Assembly: GCA_964016885.1 (NCBI GenBank)
Contig: OZ024747.1
Span: forward strand, 80,724,001-80,788,000
Length of the DNA stretch: 64,000 nucleotides
Source: Eledone cirrhosa
Lineage: Eukaryota
Direction of reading: 5' to 3'
Under the pieces are notes generated by a model that saw nothing but the letters and a program-made list of their open reading frames with translations, had not been told where the DNA came from and searched no databases. Both the position numbers and the translations under genes were made by a program. Shown one piece after another: positions 1 to 64,000 of the stretch (its first letter is position 1; every line of letters begins with the position of its first letter).

Positions 1-1374
1 TGCATTATTGTAGTATTCAGCATGTTCGCTAAAAATATCAGAGTTAGACGATAGGCGAGAGATTCTAAGAGAAATACTCCGGGGAACTGATTTGATCATG
101 GAGAGTGGGTGGTTAGAGTTAAAGTTAATATACGTAAGGTTCTCATTTACCCTGTGGAAGGGTCGTATCTGTCCGGTATTTAAATTAAGAGTTACGTCCA
201 GAAAGTTTACTACCTTAAGATTGTATTCGTATGTTATTTTTAGGCCCAGTTCACTAAAAGATTTTCTAATATTTTTCCGTAGCCTTTCAAGATTTTGGTT
301 ATTCAAGTTATTAACTAATAAGAGCCCGTCATCTCTATATATCCCCCCCTGTAGATTACTAAATCTACTATGTAATATGTGGGCTATGTAAATTCCCACG
401 AGATCCGTGACCTCCGCCGAGTCGTTGGAACCCATGGTAATATCGAAATTTGTGGGTCTGTCCTTACGTTCCCAGTAGCAGTTATCGAACTTAATAATGG
501 TTTTTCTAGCCTCGAGAATAATATTAATTTCTTCCTCCGTTAGGTCGGAATTGGCCTTAGCAAACGATAGGGCCTTACGTAAAGTGCTTGGTGAGATGGA
601 AGAGTAGTATTCGTCTATGTCAAATTGTATAAACTTAGATTTATTCTTATTCTTAACATTATTAAACCAGCGAATTGCTTCGCTAGTGTTGCCCCATAAT
701 TTAATTTCAATTTTCTTTTTCACTTGAGTTATTACTCTGTCAAGTATATGTTTACTAATTTTCCCTATGTCTGATTTAGAAGGGCATATAAGTCTAATCT
801 TAGGGTTAGAGTCAAAATTTACCTTATGGTCCTTCAGGTTGAAGGTGGGGGTAGCGGGTATAATCGGCTCGGTTCTATCGTCTATCTTGAGATTCTTTAC
901 CACTTTGTATGCCTCGTTGTTAATATTTGCTAGCGTAGTTTCATTTGTTTTTCTATATTTTTTGTGTAGTTCGTTGCGTATGAAGTTATTATACGTATCG
1001 ATATCCATGGTATACACGTTAGAAGTCTTGTCAGCTTTCACAACAATTCCATTGGTATTTTGCAATCTTCGGAGTAGTGCTTTCATGTTGTTCTGCAGCT
1101 CATTATTTCTATGTCTGTTGAACTTAATGTTCATGGTAGTTTTCAATAAGTCCTGTTCGAAAGCTTCGAGGTGAGGGTTTGTAGGTGGGTTTTTACATGA
1201 TTTAAAACCATATGATTCAGACGAGTGATTGGCGCGTCCTTTATCGAAGTGGAAAGCTTTCCATCGTACACGCCGAATGAAGTCGTTACTGCGTTGAATC
1301 ATACTGAGAATATATTCCCTTTTGTTAGGTATAGGTATGTTTTTAAGTGACATACCTATATGATGCCTTTCCAT
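1..1374 (-). CDS. PLE reverse transcriptase ORF, N-terminal part, open to the window edge
   Basis: Hand translation: MERHHIGMSLKNIPIP...FIRRVRWKAFHF...KADKTSNVY...LKDHK...RLICPSKSDIGKISKHILD...FDIDEYYSSI...MGSNDSAEV...GIYRDDGL...FLDVTL. No stop was found. It is absent from the ORF track because it has no stop inside the window. Confidence 0.92.
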   Translation of the reverse strand, partial: MERHHIGMSLKNIPIPNKREYILSMIQRSNDFIRRVRWKAFHFDKGRANHSSESYGFKSCKNPPTNPHLEAFEQDLLKTTMNIKFNRHRNNELQNNMKALLRRLQNTNGIVVKADKTSNVYTMDIDTYNNFIRNELHKKYRKTNETTLANINNEAYKVVKNLKIDDRTEPIIPATPTFNLKDHKVNFDSNPKIRLICPSKSDIGKISKHILDRVITQVKKKIEIKLWGNTSEAIRWFNNVKNKNKSKFIQFDIDEYYSSISPSTLRKALSFAKANSDLTEEEINIILEARKTIIKFDNCYWERKDRPTNFDITMGSNDSAEVTDLVGIYIAHILHSRFSNLQGGIYRDDGLLLVNNLNNQNLERLRKNIRKSFSELGLKITYEYNLKVVNFLDVTLNLNTGQIRPFHRVNENLTYINFNSNHPLSMIKSVPRSISLRISRLSSNSDIFSEHAEYYNNA

Positions 1375-1619
1375 ATTAATGCCGTGTGTCGATGTGGTTG
1401 CTCAACTATGTAGGAGACGATTATTAGGTATAGGATTATCCAAGATGCAGTGATGGTTAATTACTACACTGGATATGGTTGACGTACGGTAAGAGGTTAC
1501 TCTACGAGTTATGGAAGAATTGTTCAAGAAACTTAGTTCTTGATCCTTCAGTATTCCGGAGTGTATATAAAGAATGAATAATAACAGGTAGACATCATAA
1601 AAAGGTAGTTTATTCCGTG

Positions 1620-1731
1620 TGCTTACAAGTGTTTCCACGGTGGTACTGCAGCCTAGTTCCGCTACGTGCAAATTCACAAGTATTTGCAGAACTCGAATAT
1701 CCAATGCTGTGACCACTGTTTCCTCAGAGCA
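1620..1731 (-). ncRNA. Type I hammerhead ribozyme, second pLTR copy
   Basis: Reverse complement of 3966-4077. Confidence 0.85.
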
Positions 1732-1794
1732 GAATGGTAAATATACAATGTAAAAACCCTTAGTAAACATATACTTGACAGAGTAATAACTCAA

Positions 1795-3472
1795 GTGAAA
1801 AAGAAAATTGAAATTAAATTATGGGGCAACACTAGCGAAGCAATTCGCTGGTTTAATAATGTTAAGAATAAGAATAAATCTAAGTTTATACAATTTGACA
1901 TAGACGAATACTACTCTTCCATCTCACCAAGCACTTTACGTAAGGCCCTATCGTTTGCTAAGGCCAATTCCGACCTAACGGAGGAAGAAATTAATATTAT
2001 TCTCGAGGCTAGAAAAACCATTATTAAGTTCGATAACTGCTACTGGGAACGTAAGGACAGACCCACAAATTTCGATATTACCATGGGTTCCAACGACTCG
2101 GCGGAGGTCACGGATCTCGTGGGAATTTACATAGCCCACATATTACATAGTAGATTTAGTAATCTACAGGGGGGGGATATATAGAGATGACGGGCTCTTA
2201 TTAGTTAATAACTTGAATAACCAAAATCTTGAAAGGCTACGGAAAAATATTAGAAAATCTTTTAGTGAACTGGGCCTAAAAATAACATACGAATACAATC
2301 TTAAGGTAGTAAACTTTCTGGACGTAACTCTTAATTTAAATACCGGACAGATACGACCCTTCCACAAGGTAAATGAGAACCTTACGTATATTAACTTTAA
2401 CTCTAACCACCCACTCTCCATGATCAAATCAGTTCCCCGGAGTATTTCTCTTAGAATCTCTCGCCTATCGTCTAACTCTGATATTTTTAGCGAACATGCT
2501 GAATACTACAATAATGCATTAAGGAATGCTGACCACCGGGATACAATAGAATACATCGATAGTAATTTCCACAACACACATAGCTCTACACGTAATCAAG
2601 GTATACGTAACCGGGGGACTAAAACACAAGCACACACACACTATACTACCAGACATACTAATAATAGAAGTTCACCACCAAATAAATCACGTTGTAGAAA
2701 GTATATCTGGTATAATCCTATTTTTAATGCCTCGAATAGTACAAAACTATCTCTTTCATTCTTTAAATTAATCAATAAACACTTCCCTAGTTCCCATAAG
2801 TACAGCAAAATTCTGAACTCCAAAACTATTAGACTATCATACTCCACGGCACCAAACCTTGAAGCATACATAAAAAAACTTAACTTAAGGCAATTAAACA
2901 ACTCTACAAAACAAAACATTTTAGTAACAGGTGGGCAGAACGCAATATCTGCCTCCCAACCACTAAATGGGAGACGGATATTGCACAACCCACCTGTACC
3001 GCTATCACAACCTATCCATGGTATACCCGCTACCCACAACAAAGCATGTAACTGCCATCTACCTGAAAGATGTCCATTGCAGAATGAATGCCTAAAGTCC
3101 AACATTGTTTACCAATGCACGGTTGAATCGGACGACCAGAAATGGTATTATATCGGATCTACCACCACATCGTTTAAATCTCGCTGGTACCGTCATCGAT
3201 TCTCAATCAAACATCAGAATCACCGTTTTGTGACCACGCTCGCCAACAAGACCTGGCAACTCCGTGAACACAACCAACAGTTCACCTTAAAATGGGATAT
3301 ACTTTCCAGCGCAAATGCATATCGGAGTGGTTTGAAGTACTGCAGGTTATGTAACCTTGAGCTATTTTACATACTAAAATCCAAAAACAAACTACTTAAC
3401 GATAGAATTGAACGATCATTATACTGCAACCACAAACTAAAAGCTAAATTCTCTCACTATAAAATAACTTAA
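1795..3472 (+). pseudogene. 5'-truncated PLE RT + GIY-YIG endonuclease, split by a +1 frameshift just before YRDD
   Basis: ORFs 1795-2184 and 2213-3472. G8 at 2169-2176 contrasts with the in-frame G7 in the minus copy (343-349). The C-terminus has CNCHLPERCPLQNECL, IVY...YYIGST...FKSRW..H and CRLCNLE motifs. Confidence 0.92.
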
Positions 3473-3965
3473 CATTCGAACCCGTAACTACAACACCACT
3501 TTCTAGCTAACAACCTTCTCTTCTCCCCCACACTACAAGACAATACACTGCTTATCACTATACATGGTAACTCAGTACAATTCCTAGATTACTACTACAA
3601 AACCAAAAGTTCACTCACCACATATACTTTATCTGTCCCCTCTCTACCTATATATCTCTCTCTACATCCATTACACTCTCTCTCTCTCACCTTTGACCTA
3701 CCTCCCTCTCAACATCTATGAACTTGACCTCTGGGGCAATAAATAATTCCGACCTCAACTATCTACGCATCTCTCCAAAAGTAACTAATAAAACCCCTAC
3801 CATAACATTTTGATTAAGATATCTACAAGCCACTCTCTCCTACTTCTCCAACCCCTGCATATCTTTCCTTCTCTCTCCATCTTCCCTACTTTTCTCTCTT
3901 CCTGTTCCACTCTATCTTCCCCAACAACCCCACTTAAGGGTTTTTACATTGTATATTTACCATTC

Positions 3966-4077
3966 TGCTCTGAGGAAACAGTGGTCACAGCATTGGATAT
4001 TCGAGTTCTGCAAATACTTGTGAATTTGCACGTAGCGGAACTAGGCTGCAGTACCACCGTGGAAACACTTGTAAGCA
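3966..4077 (+). ncRNA. Type I hammerhead ribozyme in the PLE pLTR, with an 85-nt helix II domain
   Basis: TGCT-CTGAGGA-(A ACAGTGGT...ACCACCGT G)-GAAAC-ACTT-GTA-AGCA; predicted cleavage after 4073. Confidence 0.85.
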
Positions 4078-4124
4078 CACGGAATAAACTACCTTTTTAT
4101 GATGTCTACCTGTTATTATTCATT

Positions 4125-4162
<38 letters not shown>

Positions 4163-4429: not shown

Positions 4430-4816
4430 AATCCGAATTGGCGTGGAAAATACAGGTACACACGTTGTTGAAGTGTGTTTCACTCTGTCAATACATCGAC
4501 ATGTCCAGCTCCTGGGTGTGTTGTTAGTCCTCCGAGGAACTGGAAGCCAAATTTTACATATTTGACTTACTTATTTTATTTTACATTACTCCGGAGTAAA
4601 CAAACCAACCTGCCTACTTCGTTGAGTGCGCCAATCTGCACACTGAGGTGTCGGTAAACAACCAGCATATACTCAAATATTATATATATATATATATATA
4701 TAGGTTGAAATAAAATGAAAACGAAATTTCATTTCTCACTCTTAGTATGGCACTTACTTAAATGTAAGTATGTATGTATACGTACATACATATATGTATA
4801 CAGACGTACAGTAGCA

Positions 4817-4866
<50 letters not shown>

Positions 4867-5016
4867 CACGTACACATACATATATGCACGCATCAGTTTA
4901 GCGGACGCTTATTATAACGCCGCTTTGTTCGTTTGTAAACAAACTGAACAGCCTGAATTTATGCCATACGGTGTTAAGGCAACCACGTCACCTTTTTGTT
5001 CAACACTGACACAGGA

Positions 5017-5059
5017 ACGATGTACTAGTTTCAAGCTTGTTAGCTATCATCAGCACCGT
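5017..5059 (-). ncRNA. Type I hammerhead ribozyme
   Basis: ACGGTG-CTGATGA-TAGCT-AACA-AGCTT-GAAA-CTAG-TA-CATCGT; palindromic helix III (ACTAGT). Confidence 0.9.
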
Positions 5060-5097
5060 ATACCCATCTGCCAGATAGTTGAACGTTCGAAAGTATA

Positions 5098-5143
5098 TAC
5101 TTTCCTTATGAAAATTAACGGCTGAGCAGCCTAATTTGCATAT
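5098..5143 (-). promoter_or_regulatory. Octamer (ATGCAAAT) plus PSE-like element upstream of the hammerhead
   Basis: TATGCAAATTAG...TAATTTTCATAAGGAAAGTA; same order and near-identical spacing at 27948-27991. Confidence 0.55.
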
Positions 5144-5295
5144 TGAGTGAGTTGAATCGGTCAGGCATACCGAAAACGATAAGTTGAAATAAAATGAAAA
5201 CGAAATTTCATTTCTCACTCTTAGTATGGCACTTACTTAAATGTAAGTATGTATGTATACGTACATACATATATGTATACAGACGTACAGTAGCA

Positions 5296-5338
<43 letters not shown>

Positions 5339-11287: not shown

Positions 11288-11385
11288 AGGGAGTGTAACT
11301 TGGAGTTACTGTAGGTTCACCCGGGTGAGCACTCGATGTTTAAGTTTACACTTCTGTGTAGAGGTGTGTGTATATATATATATAT

Positions 11386-14300
11386 GAATATAGACATAGA
11401 ATATTCGAAAATATTCTGTATGTTTATAATAAACATTTTGAAGACCTAATCGCTATAGAATAGAATACGTCACGTATTACAATTAGATTCTCGACAAAAG
11501 CAAGGGAAGTAATCTACGCGTTTCATTCTTGTTAGAAATCATCAGGACTACATATCCAGTGCTTTTATCGAGAATGACACAGCTAGAGACTTATAGAATA
11601 CTTAGCTGTGTACAGGAACTGGTTTGAAAGAGCGGTTGCCGGTCCGGCAGAAATTAGAAATTGGAATAAATGCTCTGAAATAGCGATATATATGTGAATA
11701 TAGACATAGAATATTCGAAAATATTCTGTATGTTTATAATAAACATTTTGAAGACCTAATCGCTATAGAATAGAATACGTCACGTATTACAATTAGATTC
11801 TCGACAAAAGCAAGGGAAGTAATCTACGCGTTTCATTCTTGTTAGAAATCATCAGGACTACATATCCAGTGCTTTTATCGAGAATGACACAGCTAGAGAC
11901 TTATAGAATACTTAGCTGTGTACAGGAACTGGTTTGAAAGAGCGGTTGCCGGTCCGGCAGAAATTAGAAATTGGAATAAATGCTCTGAAATAGCGATATA
12001 TATGTGAATATAGACATAGAATATTCGAAAATATTCTGTATGTTTATAATAAACATTTTGAAGACCTAATCGCTATAGAATAGAATACGTCACGTATTAC
12101 AATTAGATTCTCGACAAAAGCAAGGGAAGTAATCTACGCGTTTCATTCTTGTTAGAAATCATCAGGACTACATATCCAGTGCTTTTATCGAGAATGACAC
12201 AGCTAGAGACTTATAGAATACTTAGCTGTGTACAGGAACTGGTTTGAAAGAGCGGTTGCCGGTCCGGCAGAAATTAGAAATTGGAATAAATGCTCTGAAA
12301 TAGCGATATATATGTGAATATAGACATAGAATATTCGAAAATATTCTGTATGTTTATAATAAACATTTTGAAGACCTAATCGCTATAGAATAGAATACGT
12401 CACGTATTACAATTAGATTCTCGACAAAAGCAAGGGAAGTAATCTACGCGTTTCATTCTTGTTAGAAATCATCAGGACTACATATCCAGTGCTTTTATCG
12501 AGAATGACACAGCTAGAGACTTATAGAATACTTAGCTGTGTACAGGAACTGGTTTGAAAGAGCGGTTGCCGGTCCGGCAGAAATTAGAAATTGGAATAAA
12601 TGCTCTGAAATAGCGATATATATGTGAATATAGACATAGAATATTCGAAAATATTCTGTATGTTTATAATAAACATTTTGAAGACCTAATCGCTATAGAA
12701 TAGAATACGTCACGTATTACAATTAGATTCTCGACAAAAGCAAGGGAAGTAATCTACGCGTTTCATTCTTGTTAGAAATCATCAGGACTACATATCCAGT
12801 GCTTTTATCGAGAATGACACAGCTAGAGACTTATAGAATACTTAGCTGTGTACAGGAACTGGTTTGAAAGAGCGGTTGCCGGTCCGGCAGAAATTAGAAA
12901 TTGGAATAAATGCTCTGAAATAGCGATATATATGTGAATATAGACATAGAATATTCGAAAATATTCTGTATGTTTATAATAAACATTTTGAAGACCTAAT
13001 CGCTATAGAATAGAATACGTCACGTATTACAATTAGATTCTCGACAAAAGCAAGGGAAGTAATCTACGCGTTTCATTCTTGTTAGAAATCATCAGGACTA
13101 CATATCCAGTGCTTTTATCGAGAATGACACAGCTAGAGACTTATAGAATACTTAGCTGTGTACAGGAACTGGTTTGAAAGAGCGGTTGCCGGTCCGGCAG
13201 AAATTAGAAATTGGAATAAATGCTCTGAAATAGCGATATATATGTGAATATAGACATAGAATATTCGAAAATATTCTGTATGTTTATAATAAACATTTTG
13301 AAGACCTAATCGCTATAGAATAGAATACGTCACGTATTACAATTAGATTCTCGACAAAAGCAAGGGAAGTAATCTACGCGTTTCATTCTTGTTAGAAATC
13401 ATCAGGACTACATATCCAGTGCTTTTATCGAGAATGACACAGCTAGAGACTTATAGAATACTTAGCTGTGTACAGGAACTGGTTTGAAAGAGCGGTTGCC
13501 GGTCCGGCAGAAATTAGAAATTGGAATAAATGCTCTGAAATAGCGATATATATGTGAATATAGACATAGAATATTCGAAAATATTCTGTATGTTTATAAT
13601 AAACATTTTGAAGACCTAATCGCTATAGAATAGAATACGTCACGTATTACAATTAGATTCTCGACAAAAGCAAGGGAAGTAATCTACGCGTTTCATTCTT
13701 GTTAGAAATCATCAGGACTACATATCCAGTGCTTTTATCGAGAATGACACAGCTAGAGACTTATAGAATACTTAGCTGTGTACAGGAACTGGTTTGAAAG
13801 AGCGGTTGCCGGTCCGGCAGAAATTAGAAATTGGAATAAATGCTCTGAAATAGCGATATATATGTGAATATAGACATAGAATATTCGAAAATATTCTGTA
13901 TGTTTATAATAAACATTTTGAAGACCTAATCGCTATAGAATAGAATACGTCGCGTATTACAATTAGATTCTCGACAAAAGCAAGGGAAGTAATCTACGCG
14001 TTTCATTCTTGTTAGAAATCATCAGGACTACATATCCAGTGCTTTTATCGAGAATGACACAGCTAGAGACTTATAGAATACTTAGCTGTGTACAGGAACT
14101 GGTTTGAAAGAGCGGTTGCCGGTCCGGCAGAAATTAGAAATTGGAATAAATGCTCTGAAATAGCGATATATATGTGAATATAGACATAGAATATTCGAAA
14201 ATATTCTGTATGTTTATAATAAACATTTTGAAGACCTAATCGCTATAGAATAGAATACGTCACGTATTACAATTAGATTCTCGACAAAAGCAAGGGAAGT

Positions 14301-14480
14301 AATCTACGCGTTTCATTCTTGTTAGAAATCATCAGGACTACATATCCAGTGCTTTTATCGAGAATGACACAGCTAGAGACTTATAGAATACTTAGCTGTG
14401 TACAGGAACTGGTTTGAAAGAGCGGTTGCCGGTCCGGCAGAAATTAGAAATTGGAATAAATGCTCTGAAATAGCGATATA
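11386..14480 (-). mobile_element. Tandem array of ten 310 bp monomers, each with a type I hammerhead (retrozyme-like)
   Basis: Units start at 11386+310n (n=0-9). Only one substitution was seen (A>G at 13952). Both ends are flanked by (TA)n. Confidence 0.95.
11509..11551 (-). ncRNA. Type I hammerhead of the 310 bp monomer (repeated every 310 bp up to 14299-14341)
   Basis: GTAGTC-CTGATGA-TTTCT-AACA-AGAAT-GAAA-CGCG-TA-GATTAC. Helix I is extended by ATTCTCGATAAAAGCA/TGCTTTTGTCGAGAAT. Predicted cut between 11515 and 11514. Confidence 0.93.
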
Positions 14481-15138
14481 TATATATATATATATATATA
14501 TAGATATATATAGATAGATAGATAGATATATAACAAAGAAGGTGTGGTAAGATACCAGATGGACCATAACCCACCAGAGTACACGATACTTAGGATAGTA
14601 GAGTGGGTAATAGGAAAAGAGTCACGACCCCCACGGCTGAGCCCTGGCCGTTTCGACAGCTAGATCCGAAATATGAATATATATATATATAAATAAAACT
14701 TACATTCAAACATATTCTCACTATATAAGCCCACTCGAATGAATATATAAAACGTATAATTCATTTTCACTACAAACTTATATACATACACAATGACACG
14801 AAAATATTCTTTCTTGGCTTCAACAATACACATAGTCGTATATAGGTTTATAAACTGACACTTATATAAACACCTGGTCATGTGAAGATGTCAATAAGCA
14901 CACACGCCTATGAACAAAACCAAAACAAATACACAGAACATGCAATAAGCACATATACATCATCTGAAAAACCTGCATATATATCTTAGTACCAACGTAG
15001 AAACACGTAATGCATATTCAAATATTTCATCGCAAATACATACAAACATGCACAAATATCGGATTACGTTCAAACGCTCATAACCTCACGCACATTTTCC
15101 AAAATTAGTAAAATACACGCGCAGCTATAATATACGAT

Positions 15139-27557: not shown

Positions 27558-27852
27558 ATATAAACAAATAACGAAACGAAATTAAATTTCGTTTCGTTTG
27601 TAACTCACTTTTGTATGACTGACGCTTAAACAATTAAGTTAAAAATGTACATCCACATGTGTATACTGAAATACTAGTATGCATATGAATACACACACGT
27701 ATAAATATGTAGATGTACCGAGTTTTTCACTGGTCACTTTACTGTGAGTGTCCAGCTATTCTGTATGTAAACACACAGACAAACCGGTTTTTAGAGTCAT
27801 ACTAGTTTTTGAGGAAACACCTTTCCTCTATTCTCCAGAAAGCCAGACAAGG

Positions 27853-27897
27853 AATATTGAACTAGTTTCGTTGTTGTTACAACTCATCAGCAATATT
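27853..27897 (-). ncRNA. Type I hammerhead ribozyme
   Basis: AATATTG-CTGATGA-GTTGT-AACA-ACAAC-GAAA-CTAG-TT-CAATATT. Confidence 0.92.
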
Positions 27898-27947
27898 TAC
27901 CTATCTTCCGGCCTTTCTAGAGAATCGTAAAAGCACATATCGTTATA

Positions 27948-27991
27948 TGCTTTTTCTATGAAAATTAGTAGTGGGCAGACTAATTTGCATA
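27948..27991 (-). promoter_or_regulatory. Octamer plus PSE-like element upstream of the hammerhead
   Basis: TATGCAAATTAG TCTGCCCACTA CTAATTTTCATAGAAAAAGCA. Confidence 0.55.
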
Positions 27992-28273
27992 GAGCGTGAG
28001 TACGTACCGGTTCAGCGGAGACGATAAAAACAAATAACGAAACGAAATTAAATTTCGTTGTCTGGCTTTCTGGAGAATAGAGGAAAGGTGTTTCCTCAAA
28101 AACCAGTATGACTCTAAAAACCGGTTTGTCTGTGTGTTTACATACAGAATAGCTGGACACTCACAGTAAAGTGACCAGTGAAAAACTCGGTACATCTACA
28201 TATGTATACGTGTGTGTATTCATATGCATACTAGTATTTCAGTATACATATGTGGATGTACATTTTTAACTTA

Positions 28274-28358
<85 letters not shown>

Positions 28359-29144: not shown

Positions 29145-29179
<35 letters not shown>

Positions 29180-29217
29180 ATTAAATAAATGGAAAACTAT
29201 ATTTATAAAACCATATC

Positions 29218-29283
29218 TATTTCATTATATATATTTCGGGGATATCATATTAACAATATGCTATGCCTTCATCAGACAAAATA
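29218..29283 (-). ncRNA. Type I hammerhead, left arm
   Basis: Reverse complement of 32460-32525. Confidence 0.85.
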
Positions 29284-29643
29284 CAATATAAACAGTTTTA
29301 TAGATAAATATATTCGACATACCGTAATAAACATCAACTTCATTTGAAGAGGTTTACGCTAGCAGTGAAAATACAGAGAGAAAGAAAGAGAGAAAGAAAA
29401 GAGGGAAAAAAGAAAGAAAGAAAGACAAAACGAAGAGAAGGAAGAAAAAGAAGAAAAAGAAAAAGAAGAAATGCATGGAACAAAATAGAGAGATGGAAAA
29501 ATAGATAAAGCGAAGAGCTTCATGTAAAGAGACAGAAAGAGATATATATATATAGAGAGAGAGGAAATAGAGATAGATACATATATATATATAGAAAATT
29601 AGGTAGTGGGAGGTCATTTTGAGTAAGTGTATCAATGATACAT

Positions 29644-29682
<39 letters not shown>

Positions 29683-32040
29683 GCTCAAGTATTAATGTAA
29701 GGAAGATATATAGAGAGATATAGAGAGATATAGAGAGAGAAAAAAAAAAAAAAATTTAAAATAGCCAGACATATTCGAGGCGTAGAAAACCCTATGTTTT
29801 AATGTATTAGTATTTATAAAACTTACACTATATTGTAAATATCAGTATTCCTGAATGAAACAAGTATTCACAATGTGTGAAAATTCATTATCTTATGTTT
29901 AGTTTTAAAAAATTCATATGTTTATGTGACAGCTACAAACATCAATGTGAATCCAACTGATTCACTCCGCAAACTCTAAGTTACCGGAAAACATTCTCAA
30001 TGTGGTATAAAAATTTGAGCATATTATTATTCTTGCGATTACTCTACAAGATTATCTATCAAGCAGAAATAGAGAGCAGATTTCAATATACTAATCGAAA
30101 ATATATATTATATTATAAACAAAGATAACAATAATAATAATAAGTAAAAATATATAAAAATATAGAATAGAAAACTAAAAAAAAAAATATTACGAAAGAA
30201 TATTACATAATAAAAATATTGCATATTAAAAATACTACGTATTAAAAAATATTACGTATTAAAAATTTACATATAAAAATATTAAAAATAAAATAAAAAA
30301 TAAAAATATTATAGAATACTACAATACTAAAAGAATAAAAATAAAAATAAAAATAAAAATAAAAATGAAAATAAAATAAAAATAAACCACAAAGAACAAC
30401 CCTTCAAAGTTAATTGACAATATATTGCCAAGTTCATTGCAAGACAAAGCCAAAAATTATCTATCAAATCACATCTAGCAAAGAATATCGCAAAAAAGAT
30501 TATGATGTCCAATAATGTCTACATATGTTCCTATATTTAATATAGAAGTTTATCTAGTGTAAGGTTAATTCAAAAAATTTGGAGCATCGGCTTTTAGGGT
30601 AGCTTAATTTTTCATGAGGAATGTTTAGATAAAAATAAAAATAAATTAAATAAATTAAACAATAAAAAGAGTAAAAAGAGGGAATCAAAGATTTAGGAAT
30701 CTTCAACGGCACTATCAGGGGTACTCTGGCAACTTAAGCTAGATAACGTTAGATATTCGACGGCTTGGAATATAGTCTCAAGAGGGATTCCTTTTAATTC
30801 ATCCTCTGAGACATGTGACCTCTGCGCAGAGGAGATATTCTTTATACTAAAATCTAAAAATTCCCTTAACCTACGGACAAATTTATTCAGTTGTTGCAAA
30901 CATAGATTAAACTCAACGTTTAAATATAAATTTAAATTTAAAATGTAGTATATTTAGTTTGATTTATATTTATATGAGAACTAGCCGATAAATCTTTTGA
31001 TTCCTAAATCTTTGATTCCCTCTTTTTACTCTTTTTATTGTTTAATTTATTTTATTTATTTTTATTTTTATTTTTTATCTAAACATTCCTCATGAAAAAT
31101 TAAGCTACCCTAAAAGCCGATGCTCCAAATTTTTTGAATTAACCTTACACTAGATAAACTTCTATATTAAATATAGGAACATATGTAGACATTATTGGAC
31201 ATCATAATCTTTTTTGCGATATTCTTTGCTAGATGTGATTTGATAGATAATTTTTGGCTTTGTCTTGTAATGAACTTGGCAATATATTGTCAATTAATTT
31301 TGAAGGGTTGTTCTTTGTGGTTTATTTTTATTTTATTTTCATTTTTATTTTTATTTTTATTTTTATTTTTATTTTTATTCTTTTAGTATTGTAGTATTCT
31401 ATAATATTTTTATTTTTTATTTTATTTTTAATATTTTTATATGTAAATTTTTAATACGTAATATTTTTTAATACGTAGTATTTTTAATATGCAATATTTT
31501 TATTATGTAATATTCTTTCGTAATATTTTTTTTTTTTTAGTTTTCTATTCTATATTTTTATATATTTTTACTTATTATTATTATTATTGTTATCTTTGTT
31601 TATAATATAATATATATTTTCGATTAGTATATTGAAATCTGCTCTCTATTTCTGCTTGATAGATAATCTTGTAGAGTAATCGCAAGAATAATAATATGCT
31701 CAAATTTTTATACCACATTGAGAATGTTTTCCGGTAACCTAGAGTTTGCGGAGTGAATCAGTTGGATTCACATTGATGTTTGTAGCTGTCACATAAACAT
31801 ATGAATTTTTTAAAACTAAACATAAGATAATGAATTTTTACACATTGTGAATACTTGTTTCATTCAGGAATACTGATATTTACAATATAGTGTAAGTTTT
31901 ATAAATACTAATACATTAAAACATAGGGTTTTCTACGCCTCGAATATGTCTGGCTATTTTAAATTTTTTTTTTTTTTTTTTTTCTCTCTCTATATCTCTC
32001 TATATCTCTCTATATATCTCCCTTACATTAATACTTGAGC

Positions 32041-32099
<59 letters not shown>

Positions 32100-32459
32100 A
32101 TGTATCATTGATACACTTACTCAAAATGACCTCCCACTACCTAATTTTCTATATATATATATGTATCTATCTCTATTTCCTCTCTCTCTATATAAATATA
32201 TCTCTTTCTGTCTCTTTACATGAAGCTCTTCGCTTTATCTATTTTTCCATCTCTCTATTTTGTTCCATGCATTTCTTCTTTTTCTTTTTCTTCTTTTTCT
32301 TCCTTCTCTTCGTTTTGTCTTTCTTTCTTTCTTTTTTCCCTCTTTTCTTTCTCTCTTTCTTTCTCTCTGTATTTTCACTGCTAGCGTAAACCTCTTCAAA
32401 TGAAGTTGATGTTTATTACGGTATGTCGAATATATTTATCTATAAAACTGTTTATATTG

Positions 32460-32525
32460 TATTTTGTCTGATGAAGGCATAGCATATTGTTAATATGATA
32501 TCCCCGAAATATATATAATGAAATA
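32460..32525 (+). ncRNA. Type I hammerhead, right arm
   Basis: TATTTTGT-CTGATGA-AGGCATAGCATATTGTTAATATGATATCCCC-GAAA-TATATA-TA-ATGAAATA. Confidence 0.85.
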
Positions 32526-32660
32526 GATATGGTTTTATAAATATAGTTTTCCATTTATTTAATATTTAATATTGTAAATATACTCCAAATATTTGTCGAG
32601 TGCTTTTATATCAGTTATAAATATTTACTAGTTGTAACCCAACAATTTTAAATATAACTT

Positions 32661-32714: not shown

Positions 32715-33063
32715 CGTAAAACATACCAAAAATTGTGCATCTAATAACTGCATGTATAACCGCATGTACAGATACAAAGAATATGCACATGCACACATAT
32801 AACTCAAAACCTCCACATCCACACACACAATAACATCCATACGTCCACACATAGATATGCATGCAGACATGGATATATATTTACATAGTTGATGATGTGC
32901 CAATTTCAATGAGGGAGTTTTGTATCTATGTTAGAAACCGATTTTCTCTCTCTTGGTAAACATTTATAAAATTATAAAACTAGAAGAACATACATACATA
33001 CATTCATATACTCTTTTACCAGTCCCAGCCATCCGGCTGAGGCCATGCTGGGGCACTGCCCTT

Positions 33064-33150
<87 letters not shown>

Positions 33151-33847
33151 ACTAGAAATTGATTAACATATATAAACATGAATAATCACAGGAGATAATT
33201 TTTACATACCAAGTTAGGTAACACATAAATAGATACCTTTTAATATATGATTAACCTTCCCTGTATATATTCTATTAAAGAAATATATTTCACCAATTAA
33301 TCAGATGGTAAGTCACGGAAAGTGGATATTATTGGATTATCAACAAGGAAGAATAATAATGTCCAGCTATCCATGCTTACACCGCGAGTTTAAATCTTCA
33401 ACTGGCCTGTACCACGTGTTGCTCTTACACATGACAGCAGTCTCGTCGCAGTGGCGTGATAGGTATTCGACAACTAGAAACAGCAGTCAAATTCCTTTCA
33501 ACAGAATTAGCTCTACAATTAAGGAGCCGTATTTATATATCTATATCCAAAATTAAGATAAATTAAATGAATTTAATCCAAATCGAAATTGTGGGTGTCA
33601 TGCCATAACGGCGTGCGCCATATCGCCTGGAAATAAGCTCAAAGATAGGTCCGAGCATTTTATAATAGCTAGAAATTGATTAACATATATAAACATGAAT
33701 AATCACAGGAGATAATTTTTACAAGCGTGTAACCACGCATAGCAAGTTAGGTAACAAATAAATAGATACCTTTTAATATATGATTAACCTTATATATATA
33801 TGTATGTATATATATAAATCTACATTGTTGAGGCTTCCAAAACGACC

Positions 33848-33895
<48 letters not shown>

Positions 33896-34248
33896 CAAGG
33901 GCAGTGCCCCAGCATGGCCTCAGCCGGATGGCTGGAACAGGTAAAAGAGTATATGAATGTATGTATGTATGTTCTTCTGGTTTTATAATTTTATAAATGT
34001 TTACCAAGAGAGAGAGAATCGGTTTCTAACATAGATACAAAACTCCCTCATTGAAATTGGCACATCATCAACTATGTAAATATATATCCATGTCTGCATG
34101 CATATCTATGTGTGGAGGTATGGATGGTATTGTGTTTGTGGATGTGTATGTCTTGAGTTATATGTGTGCATGTGCATCTCCTTTGTATCTGTACATGTGT
34201 ACATGCAGTTATTAGATGCACATGTTTTGGTATGTTTTATGTATGTAT
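32710..34248. repeat. Inverted repeat, ~355 bp arms (32710-33066 / 33894-34248)
   Basis: Colinear reverse complements with scattered mismatches; a short related piece is near 57655-57693. Confidence 0.88.
33152..33791. mobile_element. 518 bp monomer x1.2 inserted in (TA)n within the inverted-repeat spacer
   Basis: Direct repeat starting at 33152 and 33670; internal long hairpins. Confidence 0.65.
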
Positions 34249-35713: not shown

Positions 35714-37771
35714 TCAGGCCAAGTCGAAGACTCCACCCTCAGAGTCTGGTGTGGTTGCCAGGTTGGATTCTCTGTTTAATTTTGACATGTGTAGGAGCGA
35801 GTTTGAGTCAGTTTGTGCTCGTTGTGTATATCCTGGGAGATGGGGTTCATCTCTAATGGTGCTTAAGTATCTATCCAGCTGCAATTTGAATGATTCCACA
35901 CTGCATCCTGATAGATTTCTGACATGTACCGGAATGGAGTTGAATAGTTGTGTCCCTCTAACCAACAGACTTGACTCTCGCAGGGTTTTTGCTGCCTGGC
36001 CAGCCCTTTTGTTGATTGGTGGTAGCTGGCAGCGTCTTCCGTGGCGCAGTGAGTGGTAGGTTTTGATACCGAAGTTTGGCACCTTTTGCTCTATCATTTT
36101 CCAAATGTATATAATTCGGTATCGCTCAAATCTTCTTTCTATTGAGTACATCTTCAAGGTTCTGAGTCTTTGCCAATAGTCCAGGTCCCTCGTTTCTGAG
36201 AAGTATGAAGTAAAATTTCTTTGGAGCGATTCCATCTTAGATAGTTGGCCCTTTGTTGTTGGTGACCACAACTGAGAACAGTAGTCAATCCTCGGAAGTA
36301 TCATACTGTTCCAGAGGGTTTTCATTGTTGAGGTATCTCTTGATTTGAAGGTGCGCAAGATCCACCCGCTGTACTTTCTTGCAGTAAGACAGACTGAGTC
36401 AAGGTGTTCTCTGAATTTTAGGCTGGTTCCCATGTGGATGCCTAAATCTTTCACACACTGTTTTTCCATTATTTGTTGTCCTGATGGGTTTCTGTAGTTT
36501 GTTGTATTTTTCAGATCTTGATCTGTTCCGTAGCGAATTAGTTCAAACTTCTTATCATTGAACAACATGTTGTTTGTTTCCTGCCATTTGTATATGGTGG
36601 TTAGGTCCTTTTGTAAGGCCTCTGTATCCACCTCGTCTTTGATTTGTCTCATGACCCTGGTGTCATCAGCAAAGGATGAGACGTTGCTGGTTGTATCTTC
36701 ATCTATGTCAGAGATGAGGATGAGAAACAGGATCGGGACGAGTACTGTACCCTGAGGAACACTGCTGGTCACAGGTGATGGTGTTGAATGGGTTCCATTC
36801 ACAGTGACTGTTTGAGTTCTATTTGTAAGGAACTCATGTATCCATGTACCAACTTTTCCTCCTACTCCTAGCTTTCGAAGTTTGTGTCCCAGGATGCCAT
36901 GATCTACCTTGTCAAATGCCTTGGCAAAGTCGAGGTAAATAACATCTGTGTTGTATCCATTCTCTAGATTTTCTAGGATTTGGTCATGGTGTGCCAGTAG
37001 TTGGGAAAGACATGATCTACCTAACCTGAATCCATGCTGATTGCAATTCATCAGATTGTTGGATTCCAGGAACTCAACTAGTTTTCCACGAACTATTCTT
37101 TCGAAGACCTTGATAATGTGTGATGTCAGTGAGATTGGTCGGTAGTTCTTTGGTTTTGATTTGCTGTCCCCTTTATGTATTGGAGTTATGTGTGCTTCTT
37201 TATATGTATTTGGTATTTTGCCATTCTCCATAGATTCCTTCCATATCATGTAAAGGGGTTTCAACAATTGTACCTTGCAGTTTTTAAGTATCATGGCATT
37301 GAAACCATCAGGCCCCGCAGCCGAGTGCATGGAGAGCTTGTCTATGGCTCTTTCTATGTCTTCTGGGTTGAAATCAATGTCGGATAGGGTAGGTTTAGTA
37401 TGGTCGATATCCTTGAAGAATTCTCCTGGGTCATGGATCTTCATGGTTTTAGATGGCTCACTGAAGACACTTTCATACTGTTGACCCAACATTTCTGCCA
37501 TTTCAATAGGGTTATTCACTACATCCCCATTTTGTCTCTGGAGAGGTCCTATTGTTGACTTGGTATTCGAGTATTTCTTTGCAAAACTGTAGAAACATTT
37601 TGGATTTTTCTTGATGTTTTCTATGGCTCTCTTTTCTGCATTGTTACGTTCTTCATCATAGTATTGTTTTAGATTGTCTTCTAATCTGTATATTTGGTCA
37701 AGGACTTTCTGTAGTTCATGTTTTGATGTCAGCTTAGATGTTTTGTTTCTTAGTCTTGACCTTTTGCGCAT
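35714..37771 (-). CDS. LINE ORF2 reverse transcriptase region
   Basis: AAGPDG, NYRPISLTS, QHGFRLGRSC, YLDFAKAFDKVDH, VPQGTVL, FADD, KDLGI motifs. Confidence 0.95.
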   Translation of the reverse strand: MRKRSRLRNKTSKLTSKHELQKVLDQIYRLEDNLKQYYDEERNNAEKRAIENIKKNPKCFYSFAKKYSNTKSTIGPLQRQNGDVVNNPIEMAEMLGQQYESVFSEPSKTMKIHDPGEFFKDIDHTKPTLSDIDFNPEDIERAIDKLSMHSAAGPDGFNAMILKNCKVQLLKPLYMIWKESMENGKIPNTYKEAHITPIHKGDSKSKPKNYRPISLTSHIIKVFERIVRGKLVEFLESNNLMNCNQHGFRLGRSCLSQLLAHHDQILENLENGYNTDVIYLDFAKAFDKVDHGILGHKLRKLGVGGKVGTWIHEFLTNRTQTVTVNGTHSTPSPVTSSVPQGTVLVPILFLILISDIDEDTTSNVSSFADDTRVMRQIKDEVDTEALQKDLTTIYKWQETNNMLFNDKKFELIRYGTDQDLKNTTNYRNPSGQQIMEKQCVKDLGIHMGTSLKFREHLDSVCLTARKYSGWILRTFKSRDTSTMKTLWNSMILPRIDYCSQLWSPTTKGQLSKMESLQRNFTSYFSETRDLDYWQRLRTLKMYSIERRFERYRIIYIWKMIEQKVPNFGIKTYHSLRHGRRCQLPPINKRAGQAAKTLRESSLLVRGTQLFNSIPVHVRNLSGCSVESFKLQLDRYLSTIRDEPHLPGYTQRAQTDSNSLLHMSKLNRESNLATTPDSEGGVFDLA

Positions 37772-38925
37772 CAGGATCTTTCGCTCCCGTGGTACAGGTT
37801 TTTTGTGGATTTGGTTTTCTTAAGAGGAATATTTTTTGCACATATTTCTTCGATCTTGTTTAAGAATTTCTTGTGTTTATCTGGCCCAGTAAGGTAGAGA
37901 TCCCAGTCAATGATTTGTAATTGGTTGTTAATAGTTTCCCAATTTGCCTGGTGATAATCATACCTGCATAGCTTTGGCATGTCCTTTTGTTTAAGAGTTG
38001 TGGCATTGGGCTCATTACCAATGTGTAAATGCATTTCAATAATATTGTGGTCTGAAAGGATTGTTGGGGTTGAGTGAAGGTCAAATAGCGTGTCCTCGTT
38101 GTTGGTGAAAACCAAGTCGATCGTATTATTATTTCTAGTTGCTTCTGTCATCATTTGTTTGAGGTATAATTTCTCTGTGACTTCCAACAGTTTGGCTGCC
38201 TGTATTTGTTCAGCTTTTGTCCCCAGTTTTAGTATGTGTCCATGTGGCCAGATGATGTTAGGGAAGTTGAAGTCACCAAGGAGGATAATGTTTGGCATTG
38301 GACTCGCCATGTTTCCCAGAATTTGTTGGAGCTTTGTCAGTGGTTCAGTGAAGGATAATGTTGGGCTGTTTGGCGGTCTGTACATTATTGTTACAACTGT
38401 ATTAAGTTGGATGATTTTTATGCACAGCAGGTTGCAGTAGGCATTTGATTCATTGACAAGTTCTATGCATGCATAGGTATCATGGATATACATGATAACG
38501 CCCCCATGGGATCTGACTTGTCTATCACATCTGAAGATGTTGAATCCATTGATTGAGATTTCGCTGTTGCGGATGTTTTCGTTGAGATGACTTTCAGTAA
38601 TTCCAATTATTTTGGAGTTGTTTTCTGTTGCTAATTCTTCCAAGAAAGGGACTTTACACTGTTTTGTTTTCGGATAAAGACCCTGGATATTTGCTGTTAT
38701 TATGCTTGTTGTACCGGATACATCTGCCCTATTGTTGGCAAGACTGTTGTAGTTGCTGGGACTGTGCTGACTGGATATTTGGTCTGCTGGGCTGTCTGTA
38801 TTTGTTGTATGTGCCCTGTAAGTCCAGGTGTCAGCCTTTGTATCAATGTTGCCTGGTTTTGCTGAGTCATCTGTATGGAGTACAGCTGTTGTTGTAGTTG
38901 GTAGATTATGCCTAAAAAACTGCTT
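37771..38925 (-). CDS. LINE ORF2 APE endonuclease region, separated from RT by a 1-nt frameshift near 37799-37804
   Basis: ANIQGL, ITESHL, GGV, YRPP, GDFNFP, IDLVF, SDHN motifs. The frame is open from 38925. One extra base would join it to KPVPRERKILMRKRSR. Confidence 0.9.
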   Translation of the reverse strand, partial: KQFFRHNLPTTTTAVLHTDDSAKPGNIDTKADTWTYRAHTTNTDSPADQISSQHSPSNYNSLANNRADVSGTTSIITANIQGLYPKTKQCKVPFLEELATENNSKIIGITESHLNENIRNSEISINGFNIFRCDRQVRSHGGVIMYIHDTYACIELVNESNAYCNLLCIKIIQLNTVVTIMYRPPNSPTLSFTEPLTKLQQILGNMASPMPNIILLGDFNFPNIIWPHGHILKLGTKAEQIQAAKLLEVTEKLYLKQMMTEATRNNNTIDLVFTNNEDTLFDLHSTPTILSDHNIIEMHLHIGNEPNATTLKQKDMPKLCRYDYHQANWETINNQLQIIDWDLYLTGPDKHKKFLNKIEEICAKNIPLKKTKSTKNLYHGSERS

Positions 38926-55421: not shown

Positions 55422-56360
55422 CCTTCACATTAAAGTATCCTTCGTAGAACCCACTTTTTGCCTAGTTTGTTCGACACGGTATACATAACATCAACATCAC
55501 TAACTTCTACAATGCAATGACAGAGTGCAAGTCCTTTGGGTGTTTCTGCAACCCTCTTTAGATTAAAATGCTGCGAGTTTTGATATCAGAAAAGCAGTTG
55601 ATTTCGCTCCATGTGGATGGTCACTGTTTTCCATATATGACAAAATGGAGCTATCTCACTCAAAGATTAAAACCTTCTCTAAAACAACGAAGATCTAATC
55701 TATTAATTGTACATCCAACAACTACCATTACTAAGGGTTTGTCAATGATAGATTACCGGAATCGTTCCACCTTATGCGGTCAACCAATGTCCTCTGATCT
55801 AATTTGTAAAAGTAAAGTAATTTCCCTTGAGATTAACACATTCAAAATACAAGAATATTTTGTCAATGCCATTCTATAAAAAACATTAGAAACTTTCTGA
55901 TTATATTTTCTGTGTAAAGGTGTCAGTAGAGAGTGCTATTTTTCAGAATCCTTCGATTCAGGTGCACACATCTATCCTAAAATTTCATTGATGTTTCAAC
56001 ATATTCGTTGTAATATTAAAAGCAAAACATCTTCTCTAGTGATACAACTCCCTGTCTATAATTTGGAAATCTTCCAAATGTAGACATTTTTATTAAAGCA
56101 TAAATATATTCTCCATTAGTTAAGTAAATAATACCTCCCTCGGTTTCGAGGGTAAGTGTTCCAATAGTTCGATCATTATATAATGTGAACTTGACAATAT
56201 CATGTCATATTTCTATCCAAACTACAGGACATCTCAATTGTTTCAAAAACACTTCCAAACGAATCAATCTATAAACAGTCACTCGGTCAGCTTGAAACAT
56301 GAATCAATTTTCTTTCAAACTCCATACTACAGTTTTAGAAAAGGGAGGGACTTTTATGTA

Positions 56361-56975
56361 ATGTAGTTCAACATAGATTAAATATGAAAACAGACTGGAT
56401 GGTCGCACCTAGAAAAGGGCCTCTTATCTAATGTAATTCAACATAGATTAAATATGAAAATAGACTGGATGGTCGCACCTCGAAAAGGGCCTCTTATCTA
56501 ATGTAATTCAACATAGATTAAATATGAAAATAGACTGGATGGTCGCACCTCGAAAAGGGCCTCTTATCTAATGTAATTCAACATAGATTAAATATGAAAA
56601 TAGACTGGATGGTCGCACCTCGAAAAGGGCCTCTTATCTAATGTAATTCAACATAGATTAAATATGAAAATAGACTGGATGGTCGCACCTCGAACAGGGC
56701 CTCTTATCTAATGTAATTCAACATAGATTAAATATGAAAATAGACTGGATGGTCGCAACTCGAAAAGGGCCTCTTATCTAATGTAATTCAACATAGATTA
56801 AATATGAAAACAGACTGGATGGTCGCACCTAGAAAAGGGCCTCTTATCTAATGTAGTTCAACATAGATTAAATATGAAAATAGACTGGATGGTCGCACCT
56901 AGAAAAGGGCCTCTTATCTAATGTAGTTCAACATAGATTAAATATGAAAATAGACTGGATGGTCGAACCTAGAAA
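56361..56975. repeat. 70 bp minisatellite, ~8.8 copies
   Basis: Unit ATGTAATTCAACATAGATTAAATATGAAAATAGACTGGATGGTCGCACCTCGAAAAGGGCCTCTTATCTA, starting at 56361+70n. Confidence 0.95.
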
Positions 56976-62424: not shown

Positions 62425-64000
62425 CGTATGTGGCAATAGCGTCTATAGTCAATATATACTGACTGTCTGTAGTAATAGCCTCTATAGTCAATATATACTG
62501 ACTGTCTGTAGTAATAGCCTCTATAGTCAATATATACTGACTGTATGTAGTAATAGACTCTATAGTCAATATATACTGACTGTATGTAGTAATAGCCTCT
62601 ATAGTCAATATATACTGACGGTATGTAGTAATAGCCTCTATAGTCAATATATACTGACTGTATGTAGTAATAGCCTCTATAGTCAATATATAATGACTGT
62701 CTGTAGTAATAGCCTCTATAGTCAATATATACTGACTGTATGTAGTAATAGCCTCTATAGTCAACATATACTGACTGTATGTAGTAATAGCCTCTATAGT
62801 CAACATATACTGACTGTATGTAGTAATAGACTCTATAGTCAATATATACTGACTGTATGTAGTAATAGCCTCTATAGTCAACATATACTGACTGTATGTA
62901 GTAATAGCCTCTATAGTCAACATATACTGACTGTATGTAGTAATAGACTCTATAGTCAATATATACTGACGGTATGTAGTAATAGCCTCTATAGTCAATA
63001 TATACTGACTGTATGTAGTAATAGCCTCTTTAGTCAATATATACTGACTGTATGTAGTAATAGCCTCTATAGTCAATATATACTGACGGTATGTAGTAAT
63101 AGCCTCTATAGTCAATATATACTGACTGTATGTAGTAATAGACTCTATAGTCAATATATACTGACTGTATGTAGTAATAGCCTACATAGTCAATATATAC
63201 TGACTGTATGTAGTAATAGCTTCTATAGTCAATATATACTGACTGTATGTGGTAATAGCCTCTATAGTGAATATATACTGACGGTGTGTAGTAATAGCCT
63301 CTATAGTCAACATATACTGACTGTATGTAGTAATAGCTTCTATAGTCAATATATACTGACGGTATGTAGTAATAGCCTCTATAGTCAATATATACTGACT
63401 GTATGTAGTAATAGCCTCTATAGCCAACATATACTGACTGTATGTAGTAATAGCCTCTATAGTCAATATATACTGACTGTAAGTAATAATAGCTTCTATA
63501 GTCAATATATACTGACGGTATATAGTAATATCCTCTATAGTCAATATATACTGACGGTATATAGTAGTAGCCTCTATAGTCAACATATACTGACGGTATA
63601 TAGTAATAGCCTCAATAGTCAATATATACTGACGGTATATAGTAATAGCCTCTATAGTCAATATATACTGACTGTATGTAGTAATAGCCTCTATAGTCAA
63701 CATATACTGACTGTATGTAGTAATAGCCTCTATAGTCAATATATACTGACTGTATGTAGTAATAGCCTCTTTAGTCAATATATACTGACTGTATGTAGTA
63801 ATAGCCTCTATAGTCAATATATACTGACGGTATATAGTAATAGCCTCTATAGTCAATATATACTGACTGTATGTAGTAATAGCTTCTATAGTCAACATAT
63901 ACTGACTGTATGTAGTAATAGCCTCTATAGTCAACATATACTGACTGTATGTAGTAATAGCCTCTATAGTCAATATATACTGACTGTATGTAGTAATAGC
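62425..64000. repeat. 39 bp minisatellite, ~40 copies, runs off the window edge
   Basis: Unit TGTAGTAATAGCCTCTATAGTCAATATATACTGACTGTA. Confidence 0.97.

What the first reader, a model, noticed from the sequence alone, without database searches (positions are those of the whole stretch)
11386..14480. Ten-copy 310 bp hammerhead array: a candidate retrozyme producing a circular RNA
Seen: ten near-identical non-coding monomers, each with a complete minus-strand type I hammerhead. It has a palindromic helix III (ACGCGU) and a 16-bp helix I extension whose one mismatch is a U-G wobble only on the minus strand. The rest of the monomer has several perfect hairpins. Known: tandem type I hammerhead repeats in animals (newt satellite 2, schistosome Sm-alpha, metazoan retrozymes) self-process to monomers or circles, and palindromic helix III allows dimeric cleavage. 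Inference: a young, viroid-like 310-nt RNA parasite copied into the genome by a PLE RT. I cannot tell whether this family is already described.
Basis: partly seen in the sequence, partly recalled or inferred. Interest (0 to 1): 0.92.

Follow-up and report, generated by a model that had tools for sequence, protein, structure and literature searches.

The report
Hammerhead retrozyme bearing Penelope insertion signature
This is one copy of a young, very abundant family of small self-cutting RNA parasites of a known type, and the way its many copies are inserted suggests how such RNAs are copied back into animal genomes by another jumping gene's enzyme.

Summary
Confirmed: ten 310-bp units (one substitution in all), each with a minus-strand type I hammerhead cutting after 11515. 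It is a new member of the animal non-LTR retrozymes: 14,355 motif matches and at least 1,182 insertion ends in this 3.0-Gb genome. Eleven older relatives (64-70% identical) keep the ribozyme by compensatory changes, including the C3-G8/U3-A8 core swap.

Most loci are two arrays head-to-head in (TA)n. In 28 of 28 loci with both ends classed, one arm ends near monomer position 130-139 and the other near 163-172. Inverted copy, ~35-nt tail and (TA)n target are the insertion signature of Penelope-like elements (PLEs). Both arms repeat one haplotype and read through the cleavage site, as rolling-circle reverse transcription of a monomer circle predicts.

Not shown: cleavage, RNA, circles, ten units in raw reads, the partner PLE. 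A linear multimer template remains a rival, and one locus shows a duplicated six-unit block. I did not find this architecture described for retrozymes in eight literature searches.

The parts
11376..14485 (-). Ten head-to-tail 310-bp retrozyme units; a one-armed insertion, RNA sense on the minus strand
11487..11575 (-). Hammerhead domain of the first unit with the 16-bp extension of helix I (strands 11560-11575 and 11487-11502); repeats every 310 bp up to 14277-14365
   Evidence: covariation
11509..11551 (-). Type I hammerhead proper: helix I (11546-11551 with 11509-11514), CUGAUGA (11545-11539), helix II with U-U at its base, GAAA (to 11521)
11516..11521 (-). Palindromic helix III ACGCGU: two pairs and a 2-nt loop in a monomer, a 6-bp duplex between two ribozymes
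   Evidence: duplex -9.5 kcal/mol; dimer cleavage inferred from PMC4209133 and PMC7229834
11514..11515 (-). Predicted cleavage/ligation site after GUA; monomer position 1 in this report is the base after it
   Evidence: cleavage not shown
11371..11385 (.). (TA)n target tract joined to the family's fixed short 3' end (monomer position 130; ambiguous up to 139)
   Evidence: same junction 1,182 times in the genome
11398..11436 (-). Two conserved hairpins just upstream of the short 3' end (positions 79-95 and 98-117); candidate reverse-transcriptase recognition element (inferred)
   Evidence: 98-99% of cells paired, 3 pairs with changes on both sides
11660..11694 (-). The 35-nt tail (positions 131-165) between the two fixed 3' ends of the family; present inside every unit, used as an end only in long arms elsewhere
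13952..13952 (.). The only substitution inside the array (unit 9; position 43)
14476..14532 (.). Right boundary: the unit's own ATATATAT runs into a (TA)n/(GATA)n tract; no inverted second arm

Best explanation
The array is one insertion of a young non-autonomous non-LTR retrozyme family that is spread by a Penelope-like element. Proposed cycle: (1) arrays are transcribed on the hammerhead strand (inferred; promoter not found); (2) pairs of hammerheads joined through the palindromic helix III cut multimers into 310-nt monomers, which are ligated to circles (inferred from structure, conservation and published relatives); (3) a PLE protein cuts both strands of a (TA)n tract and primes reverse transcription from both DNA ends at two fixed internal sites of the RNA about 35 nt apart (end positions, orientation and target shown; enzyme inferred); (4) each reverse transcriptase runs round the circle 1 to about 17 times, giving two tandem arms of one haplotype whose randomly truncated 5' ends are joined head-to-head (pattern shown; circle inferred). 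The window holds the minority one-armed product: short end at left, and at right a join at the unit's own AT tract, either because no second arm was made or because it was lost by recombination between AT tracts. PLE mobilisation of a retrozyme about 0.88; monomer circle as the usual template about 0.7.
For: Layout: of 39 loci examined (window, 23 from the best hits, 15 taken in position order), 28 had both outer ends classed automatically and all 28 pair one short with one long end on opposite strands; 2 more do so by eye, 1 runs into a gap, 8 are one-armed. On the first 101 Mb of C1, 31 of 39 short ends have an outward-facing long end within 15 kb; long-long 0 of 49. Craig 2021 (PMC8557442) gives inverted 5'-truncated copy, 30-40-bp tail and (TA)n target as PLE traits; Frangieh 2024 (PMC11167929) shows that a PLE protein cuts and extends both strands and that the tail lies between two internal RT start sites. 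Internal control: a Hydra-type PLE in this window has the same head-to-head layout with two fixed ends in (TA)n, and a second PLE family also has two fixed ends. One template per insertion: 208 of 232 full units equal their locus majority, 15 distinct majority haplotypes among 32 loci, 16 of 17 two-arm loci share the majority in both arms and the 17th differs by a singleton on the same background. The window's own variant occurs 23 times in the genome: in all 16 units of both arms of one locus, otherwise in 1 or 2 units per locus on six backgrounds. Read-through: 280 of 302 cores are followed by the exact helix I strand and the other 22 are a one-base variant fixed in two loci; 0 of 67 listed 5' ends lie within 5 nt of the cut site. 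Ribozyme under selection: on 14 monomers, 91.3% of cells paired against 81.3% shuffled (0 of 500) and 34-44% slid; 23 of 43 pairs change on both sides; C3-G8 is C-G in 5 and U-A in 9 of 14.
Against: No partner found: three PLE families looked at share no sequence with the monomer, and the tails of the two whose ends were read are about 142 and 66 nt, not 35. U-U at the base of helix II and a 2-nt loop III predict weak monomer cleavage; only 1 of 9 Xenopus retrozyme dimers cleaved in vitro; in the PLE assay uncut RNA was the main substrate. Not every array is uniform: L200 repeats a block of six units and shares two variants between arms; two loci carry a variant in two separated units and one has a unit of another haplotype. 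A uniform source array would also give uniform daughters from a linear transcript. The lack of 5' ends at the cut site is weak by itself (about 2 expected of 67 if uniform). Loci were selected by exact motif or best identity, which favours young uniform arrays. The structure counted was derived from the window sequence and the sequences are related, which inflates both controls. No host U6-type upstream element in the monomer.
Confidence: 0.7

Rival explanations
1. Same PLE-driven two-ended insertion, but the template is an uncut or partly cut linear (or multimeric circular) transcript of a source array; monomer circles are a by-product or absent.
For: Uncut RNA was the dominant substrate for the anole PLE in vitro and cleavage was dispensable. 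L200 has a six-unit repeated block and variants shared between arms. Weak helix II base. Uniform sources give uniform daughters.
Against: New variants become fixed across all units of both arms (15 haplotypes in 32 loci; 16 of 16 units in L199), which needs a one-monomer bottleneck each time; most singletons are not copied in order to other loci in this sample; compensatory conservation of the core across 64-70% relatives says cleavage matters.
Confidence: 0.2
2. A single PLE-end-derived monomer is inserted and then amplified locally by unequal crossover or slippage, like a minisatellite (the model favoured in the discussion of bioRxiv 10.64898/2026.07.22.740005).
For: L200's duplicated block shows that DNA-level duplication can occur; the window array is exactly ten units bounded by AT tracts, and 8 of 39 loci have one arm.
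Against: It does not explain over a thousand separate young loci each with tandem arms on both sides of an inversion, sharing one haplotype, with partial units at random 5' positions at the inversion point.
Confidence: 0.06
3. The ten-unit length is an assembly expansion of a shorter repeat.
For: Eight units are identical; no contig of the four runs laid spans the array.
Against: Arrays of 1 to about 25 units with locus-specific haplotypes and singletons occur all over the assembly; in run X1 depth on the unit is about 2.2-2.5 x 10^5 against about 8 on two unique flank contigs (a rough figure, not a copy number), so the family is at least as abundant in reads as in the assembly.
Confidence: 0.03

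Closest known systems
Metazoan non-LTR retrozymes (Cervera and de la Pena 2020, PMC7229834; coral, mussel, axolotl)
   Same: Tandem 170-400-nt non-coding units, GC under 45%, one type I hammerhead per unit, thousands of copies, self-paired fold, PLEs in the same genome. Axolotl HHR_Amex2 also has a U-U mismatch at the base of helix II and cleaves much better as a dimer.
   Different: Their circles and cleavage were shown; here they are inferred. The paper proposes circle-templated tandem cDNA and names PLEs as candidates, but 'inverted', 'target site' and 'microsatellite' do not occur in its main text. Sequence is family-specific.
Xenopus and other vertebrate retrozymes as non-autonomous PLE derivatives (bioRxiv 10.64898/2026.07.22.740005)
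   Same: Same conclusion that PLEs stand behind retrozymes.
   Different: Their evidence is co-occurrence and homology to PLE ends; tail and orientation are not mentioned and arrays are ascribed to local amplification. Here no homologous PLE end was found, and the evidence is the insertion anatomy.
Endonuclease-bearing Penelope-like elements (Hydra, Naiad, Neptune, Poseidon clades; PMC8557442, PMC11167929)
   Same: Inverted 5'-truncated copy, tail at one end, (TA)n target, tandem copies, hammerhead upstream of the ends.
   Different: No ORF; units are 310 nt and iterated up to about 17 times per arm; the hammerhead has a canonical extended helix I, not the minimal PLE form. Non-autonomous multicopy PLE derivatives are noted in Chlamydomonas, with similarity to their autonomous partner.
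Rfam Hammerhead_HH9 / clan CL00010
   Same: Core and type I topology align over the whole model.
   Different: 18.3 bits, far below the gathering score of 52; Hammerhead_1 not listed at E up to 10.

Membership tests
Non-LTR retrozyme | Tandem units of about 170-400 nt, low GC | tested here: met
   310 nt, about 34% GC
Non-LTR retrozyme | Complete type I hammerhead in each unit | tested here: met
   10 of 10 units; covariation in relatives
Non-LTR retrozyme | No protein coded | tested here: met
   longest ATG ORF 30 aa
Non-LTR retrozyme | Dispersed, high copy, beside autonomous PLEs | tested here: met
   14,355 motifs; PLE family with intact 784-aa ORFs
Non-LTR retrozyme | Highly self-paired monomer | tested here: met
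   z -4.11 linear, -5.15 circular; the other strand also folds well
Non-LTR retrozyme | Self-cleavage of the RNA | not testable with these tools
   bench test needed
Non-LTR retrozyme | Expression as linear and circular RNA | not testable with these tools
   no RNA holder listed; contigs cannot show circles
PLE-mobilised element | Inverted 5'-truncated copy at the 5' end | tested here: met
   31 of 39 loci two-armed; absent in the window copy itself
PLE-mobilised element | 30-40-bp tail at one end only | tested here: met
   28 of 28 loci pair an end at 126-139 with an end at 163-172
PLE-mobilised element | (TA)n target preference | tested here: met
PLE-mobilised element | Sequence shared with the end repeat of an autonomous partner | tested here: inconclusive
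   none in three families and 30 tail-motif loci examined; the genome has tens of thousands of unscored PLE-like candidates
Autonomous PLE | ORF with RT and GIY-YIG domains | tested here: not met
   no ORF
Rfam hammerhead families | Score at or above gathering threshold | tested here: not met
snRNA-promoter-driven hammerhead repeat (newt satellite 2 type; recalled, no call) | Host U6-type upstream element and TATA before the ribozyme | tested here: not met
   host element read from U6 genes; best 8-9 of 12 positions in 14 monomers on either strand, while two other hammerhead repeats in the window match 12 of 12

The most novel reading that the evidence does not exclude
The 310-nt RNA is a viroid-like circle that hijacks a PLE protein without sharing sequence with it, is copied from both ends of one DNA break by rolling-circle target-primed reverse transcription, and also passes between animal species as a circle: three runs labelled as other organisms each hold it as a single 340-nt contig (310 + 30, the form of a closed loop in such assemblies) with 0-2 differences. 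The first part alone (two-ended rolling-circle copying of a monomer circle) I put at about 0.65; trace host DNA explains the three runs more simply.
Probability: 0.07. Interest if true: 0.9.

Novelty: new member of a known kind. Interest (0 to 1): 0.62.

Why it matters
How animal retrozymes get back into the genome has been a hypothesis (circle plus an unnamed RT, PLEs as candidates), and the PLE cycle that makes inverted copies and tails is itself described as undefined (PMC8557442). This family supplies more than a thousand near-identical insertions that record both priming sites to within a few bases, the target, the run length of each arm and the template haplotype. That turns two open questions into direct tests with a 310-nt substrate: does a PLE protein prime twice on a circle, and are tandem arrays born at insertion or grown afterwards? 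It also suggests a quick check for other genomes: look for head-to-head arms with two fixed ends around known retrozymes. The arrays are multi-kilobase near-perfect palindromes, about 0.15% of this genome by motif count (inference).

Tried and rejected
RNA evidence: no RNA holder listed; this says nothing on expression. Four runs laid as contigs: none spans the array, no joint across an empty site; the 340-nt loop-shaped contigs in X3-X5 arise equally from tandem DNA and are not evidence of circles. Rfam: no hit at gathering score; the fluoride riboswitch hit (11.6 bits, E 2.5) is chance. Partner search: window Hydra-type PLE, second family, a third, broken family, and 30 of 349 loci with a variant tail motif (28 were retrozyme copies, and the RT near L181 is separated by microsatellite and another repeat): no shared sequence. 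A short likeness between the Hydra long end and some older relatives was seen by eye and not tested. Promoter: no U6-type element. Parentage: the locus fixed for the window's variant has two further changes, so unit 9 is not its parent. No exact match of the hammerhead pattern in metagenome or viral contigs. Pfam found nothing in the PLE protein. No earlier scan findings. L062 was dropped from the position-ordered set as a non-family motif match; L032 and L033 are one locus; L050 runs into a gap. Two 5' ends (L042, L043 left arms, about 298 and 295) were not in the list of 67. The host was not identified; 'octopus' and 'cephalopod' were guesses used to look for an earlier description. PMC5785218 was not held; supplements of the papers were not seen and may show inverted retrozyme loci.

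Full report
1. Observation. The array is as described: ten 310-bp units at 11376-14485, with one internal substitution at 13952. Each unit has a type I hammerhead on the minus strand: helix I of 6 bp, CUGAUGA, helix II of 4 bp, GAAA, the palindrome ACGCGU and a GUA cut site between 11515 and 11514. The 16-bp extension with one U-G pair and the hairpins appear in the fold (z -4.11). Forcing helices I and II in the circle costs 1.5 kcal/mol, and the palindrome forms a -9.5 kcal/mol duplex with itself. Rfam gives only a sub-threshold HH9 match. Positions below count along the RNA from the base after the cut.

2. The family. The window lies in a 3.0-Gb assembly (G000, C7). The unit has at least 324 matches, many 100% identical, on many chromosomes. 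The hammerhead pattern matches 14,355 times against 0 for the reversed control (1 of the first 100 listed is not a family member). An older family shares the tail motif (5,482 matches). In an alignment of 14 monomers (window, two at 94-95%, eleven at 64-70%; 14 of the 17 diverged monomers listed plus the window, near-duplicates and one deleted copy left out), the named structure of 43 pairs is 91.3% paired against 81.3% in shuffles (0 of 500) and 34-44% when slid; 23 pairs change on both sides; the core pair 3-8 is C-G in 5 and U-A in 9 of 14; 15.1-16.1 and 15.2-16.2 never vary. Relatedness and the origin of the structure inflate these controls, but the core swap is hard to explain without selection on a working ribozyme in the lineage.

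3. Insertion anatomy, the main new result. I examined 39 loci: the window, 23 taken from the 150 listed best hits, and 15 of the first 16 motif loci along C1 (L062 dropped as non-family). Most are two arrays head-to-head, RNA sense pointing outwards, inside (TA)n. Outer ends fall in two classes: short (126-139, mode 130/139, ambiguous because 132-139 are themselves AT) and long (163-172, mode 165). All 28 loci with both ends classed have one of each; L042 and L059 do by eye; L050 meets a gap; 8 are one-armed, among them the window. Genome-wide the short junction occurs 1,182 times and the long junction 746 times on the forward strand (the reverse count is inflated by overlapping matches). On the first 101 Mb of C1, 31 of 39 short ends have an outward long end within 15 kb and 31 of 49 long ends a short one; no long-long pair; one short-short pair made by two neighbouring insertions. 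Inner 5' ends are scattered from 11 to 270.

4. Comparison with PLEs. Craig 2021 lists an inverted 5'-truncated copy, a 30-40-bp tail at one end and (TA)n targets as PLE traits and calls the cycle undefined. Frangieh 2024 shows that a PLE protein cuts and extends both strands and starts at two internal RNA sites that delimit the tail. The window itself holds a young Hydra-type PLE with this layout and two fixed ends; a second family has two ends 66 nt apart. So the retrozyme carries the PLE signature. The partner was not found: these families differ in tail length and share no sequence.

5. Template. Within a locus 208 of 232 full units equal the majority; 32 loci have 15 majority haplotypes; both arms agree in 16 of 17 cases, and the exception is a singleton on the same background. 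The window's one variant is fixed in all 16 units of both arms at one locus and is otherwise present in one or two units on six backgrounds. Copies read through the cut site without error. This is what repeated copying of one monomer circle predicts. Against: L200 has a duplicated six-unit block and variants shared between arms, three other loci are slightly mosaic, the sample favours young arrays, and uncut linear RNA was the main PLE substrate in vitro.

6. The window copy. Its left end is the standard short end; its right end joins (TA)n at the unit's own AT tract, so it is exactly ten units. Either the second arm failed or it was deleted between AT tracts; I cannot tell which.

7. Not shown. 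Cleavage, transcription and circles: no RNA holder was listed. Unit number in reads: not testable. Promoter: the host U6 upstream element is absent from this family though present in two other hammerhead repeats of the window. Activity is not assured: axolotl ribozymes with the same U-U cleave weakly as monomers and well as dimers, and 8 of 9 Xenopus dimers did not cleave.

8. Literature seen. PMC7229834: passages and sections 14, 15, 17. bioRxiv 10.64898/2026.07.22.740005: parts 1-3 of 5 and a term search. PMC8557442: passages and section 11. PMC11167929: parts 1-2 of 4. PMC4209133 and PMC11722881: passages. No supplements were seen. Eight searches gave no description of this family or of inverted, tailed retrozyme arrays; the library lacks most subscription papers, and repeat databases could not be searched. 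The newt satellite 2 promoter type is recalled, not from a call.

9. Verdict. A real, young non-LTR retrozyme: a new member of a known kind. Its value is the family's insertion record, which gives structural evidence for PLE mobilisation (about 0.88) and for rolling-circle copying of a monomer circle (about 0.7), and defines exact priming sites for a bench test. Interest 0.62.

Noticed in passing
window 1-4133 (continues upstream in L055): Young Hydra-type PLE insertion (RWK, DKT and CxCX5C motifs as in PMC8557442 section 11): full 784-aa ORF on the left arm, 5'-truncated right arm, head-to-head, two fixed ends about 142 nt apart in (TA)n, a much longer tail than the usual 30-40.
   Followed up: yes
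window 27562-28281: A different hammerhead repeat (core at 27890, minus strand, palindromic helix III) inserted head-to-head with a tail of about 66 nt, the same length as the tail of the second PLE family; it carries the host U6-type upstream element at 27991, 101 nt before the core.
   Followed up: partly
window 4700-5336: A 479-bp repeat with a type I hammerhead (core 5053, minus strand) preceded by an exact host U6-type upstream element (5142) and a TATA-like box at about the host spacing: a candidate polymerase III-driven retrozyme.
   Followed up: partly
L102-L141 (for example L136:499-807, L125:1198-1519): Older related retrozyme family, 304-324-nt units, 5,482 matches of its tail motif, with longer helix III and often the U3-A8 core variant; ends at the same long site.
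   Followed up: yes
L057 and L065: 311-nt haplotype with one extra base two positions after the cut site, fixed in all units of two loci; helix I is kept with a bulge.
   Followed up: partly
L200 (G000:C2:44346500-44353500): Array with a six-unit block repeated twice and two variants shared between arms.
   Followed up: partly
window 29171-32572 and 32763-34197: Large palindromes with microsatellite ends; the first has a hammerhead-like core in both arms (29275, 32468).
   Followed up: no
window 35714-38925 (minus): LINE-like element with endonuclease-like and RT-like ORFs of 384 and 701 aa (family judged by eye).
   Followed up: no
window 56346-56976 and 62405-64000: Tandem arrays of 70 bp (9 copies) and 39 bp (41 or more copies).
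   Followed up: no
G000:C19:31780605-31840331: Tandem cluster of about 30 U6 genes with two alternative upstream sequences, one lacking the element shared by the other U6 genes.
   Followed up: no
runs X3, X4, X5: Runs labelled as three other organisms each hold the monomer as one 340-nt contig at depth 48, 12 and 10 with 0, 2 and 1 differences; the X5 difference is the host's common 20G>A variant.
   Followed up: partly
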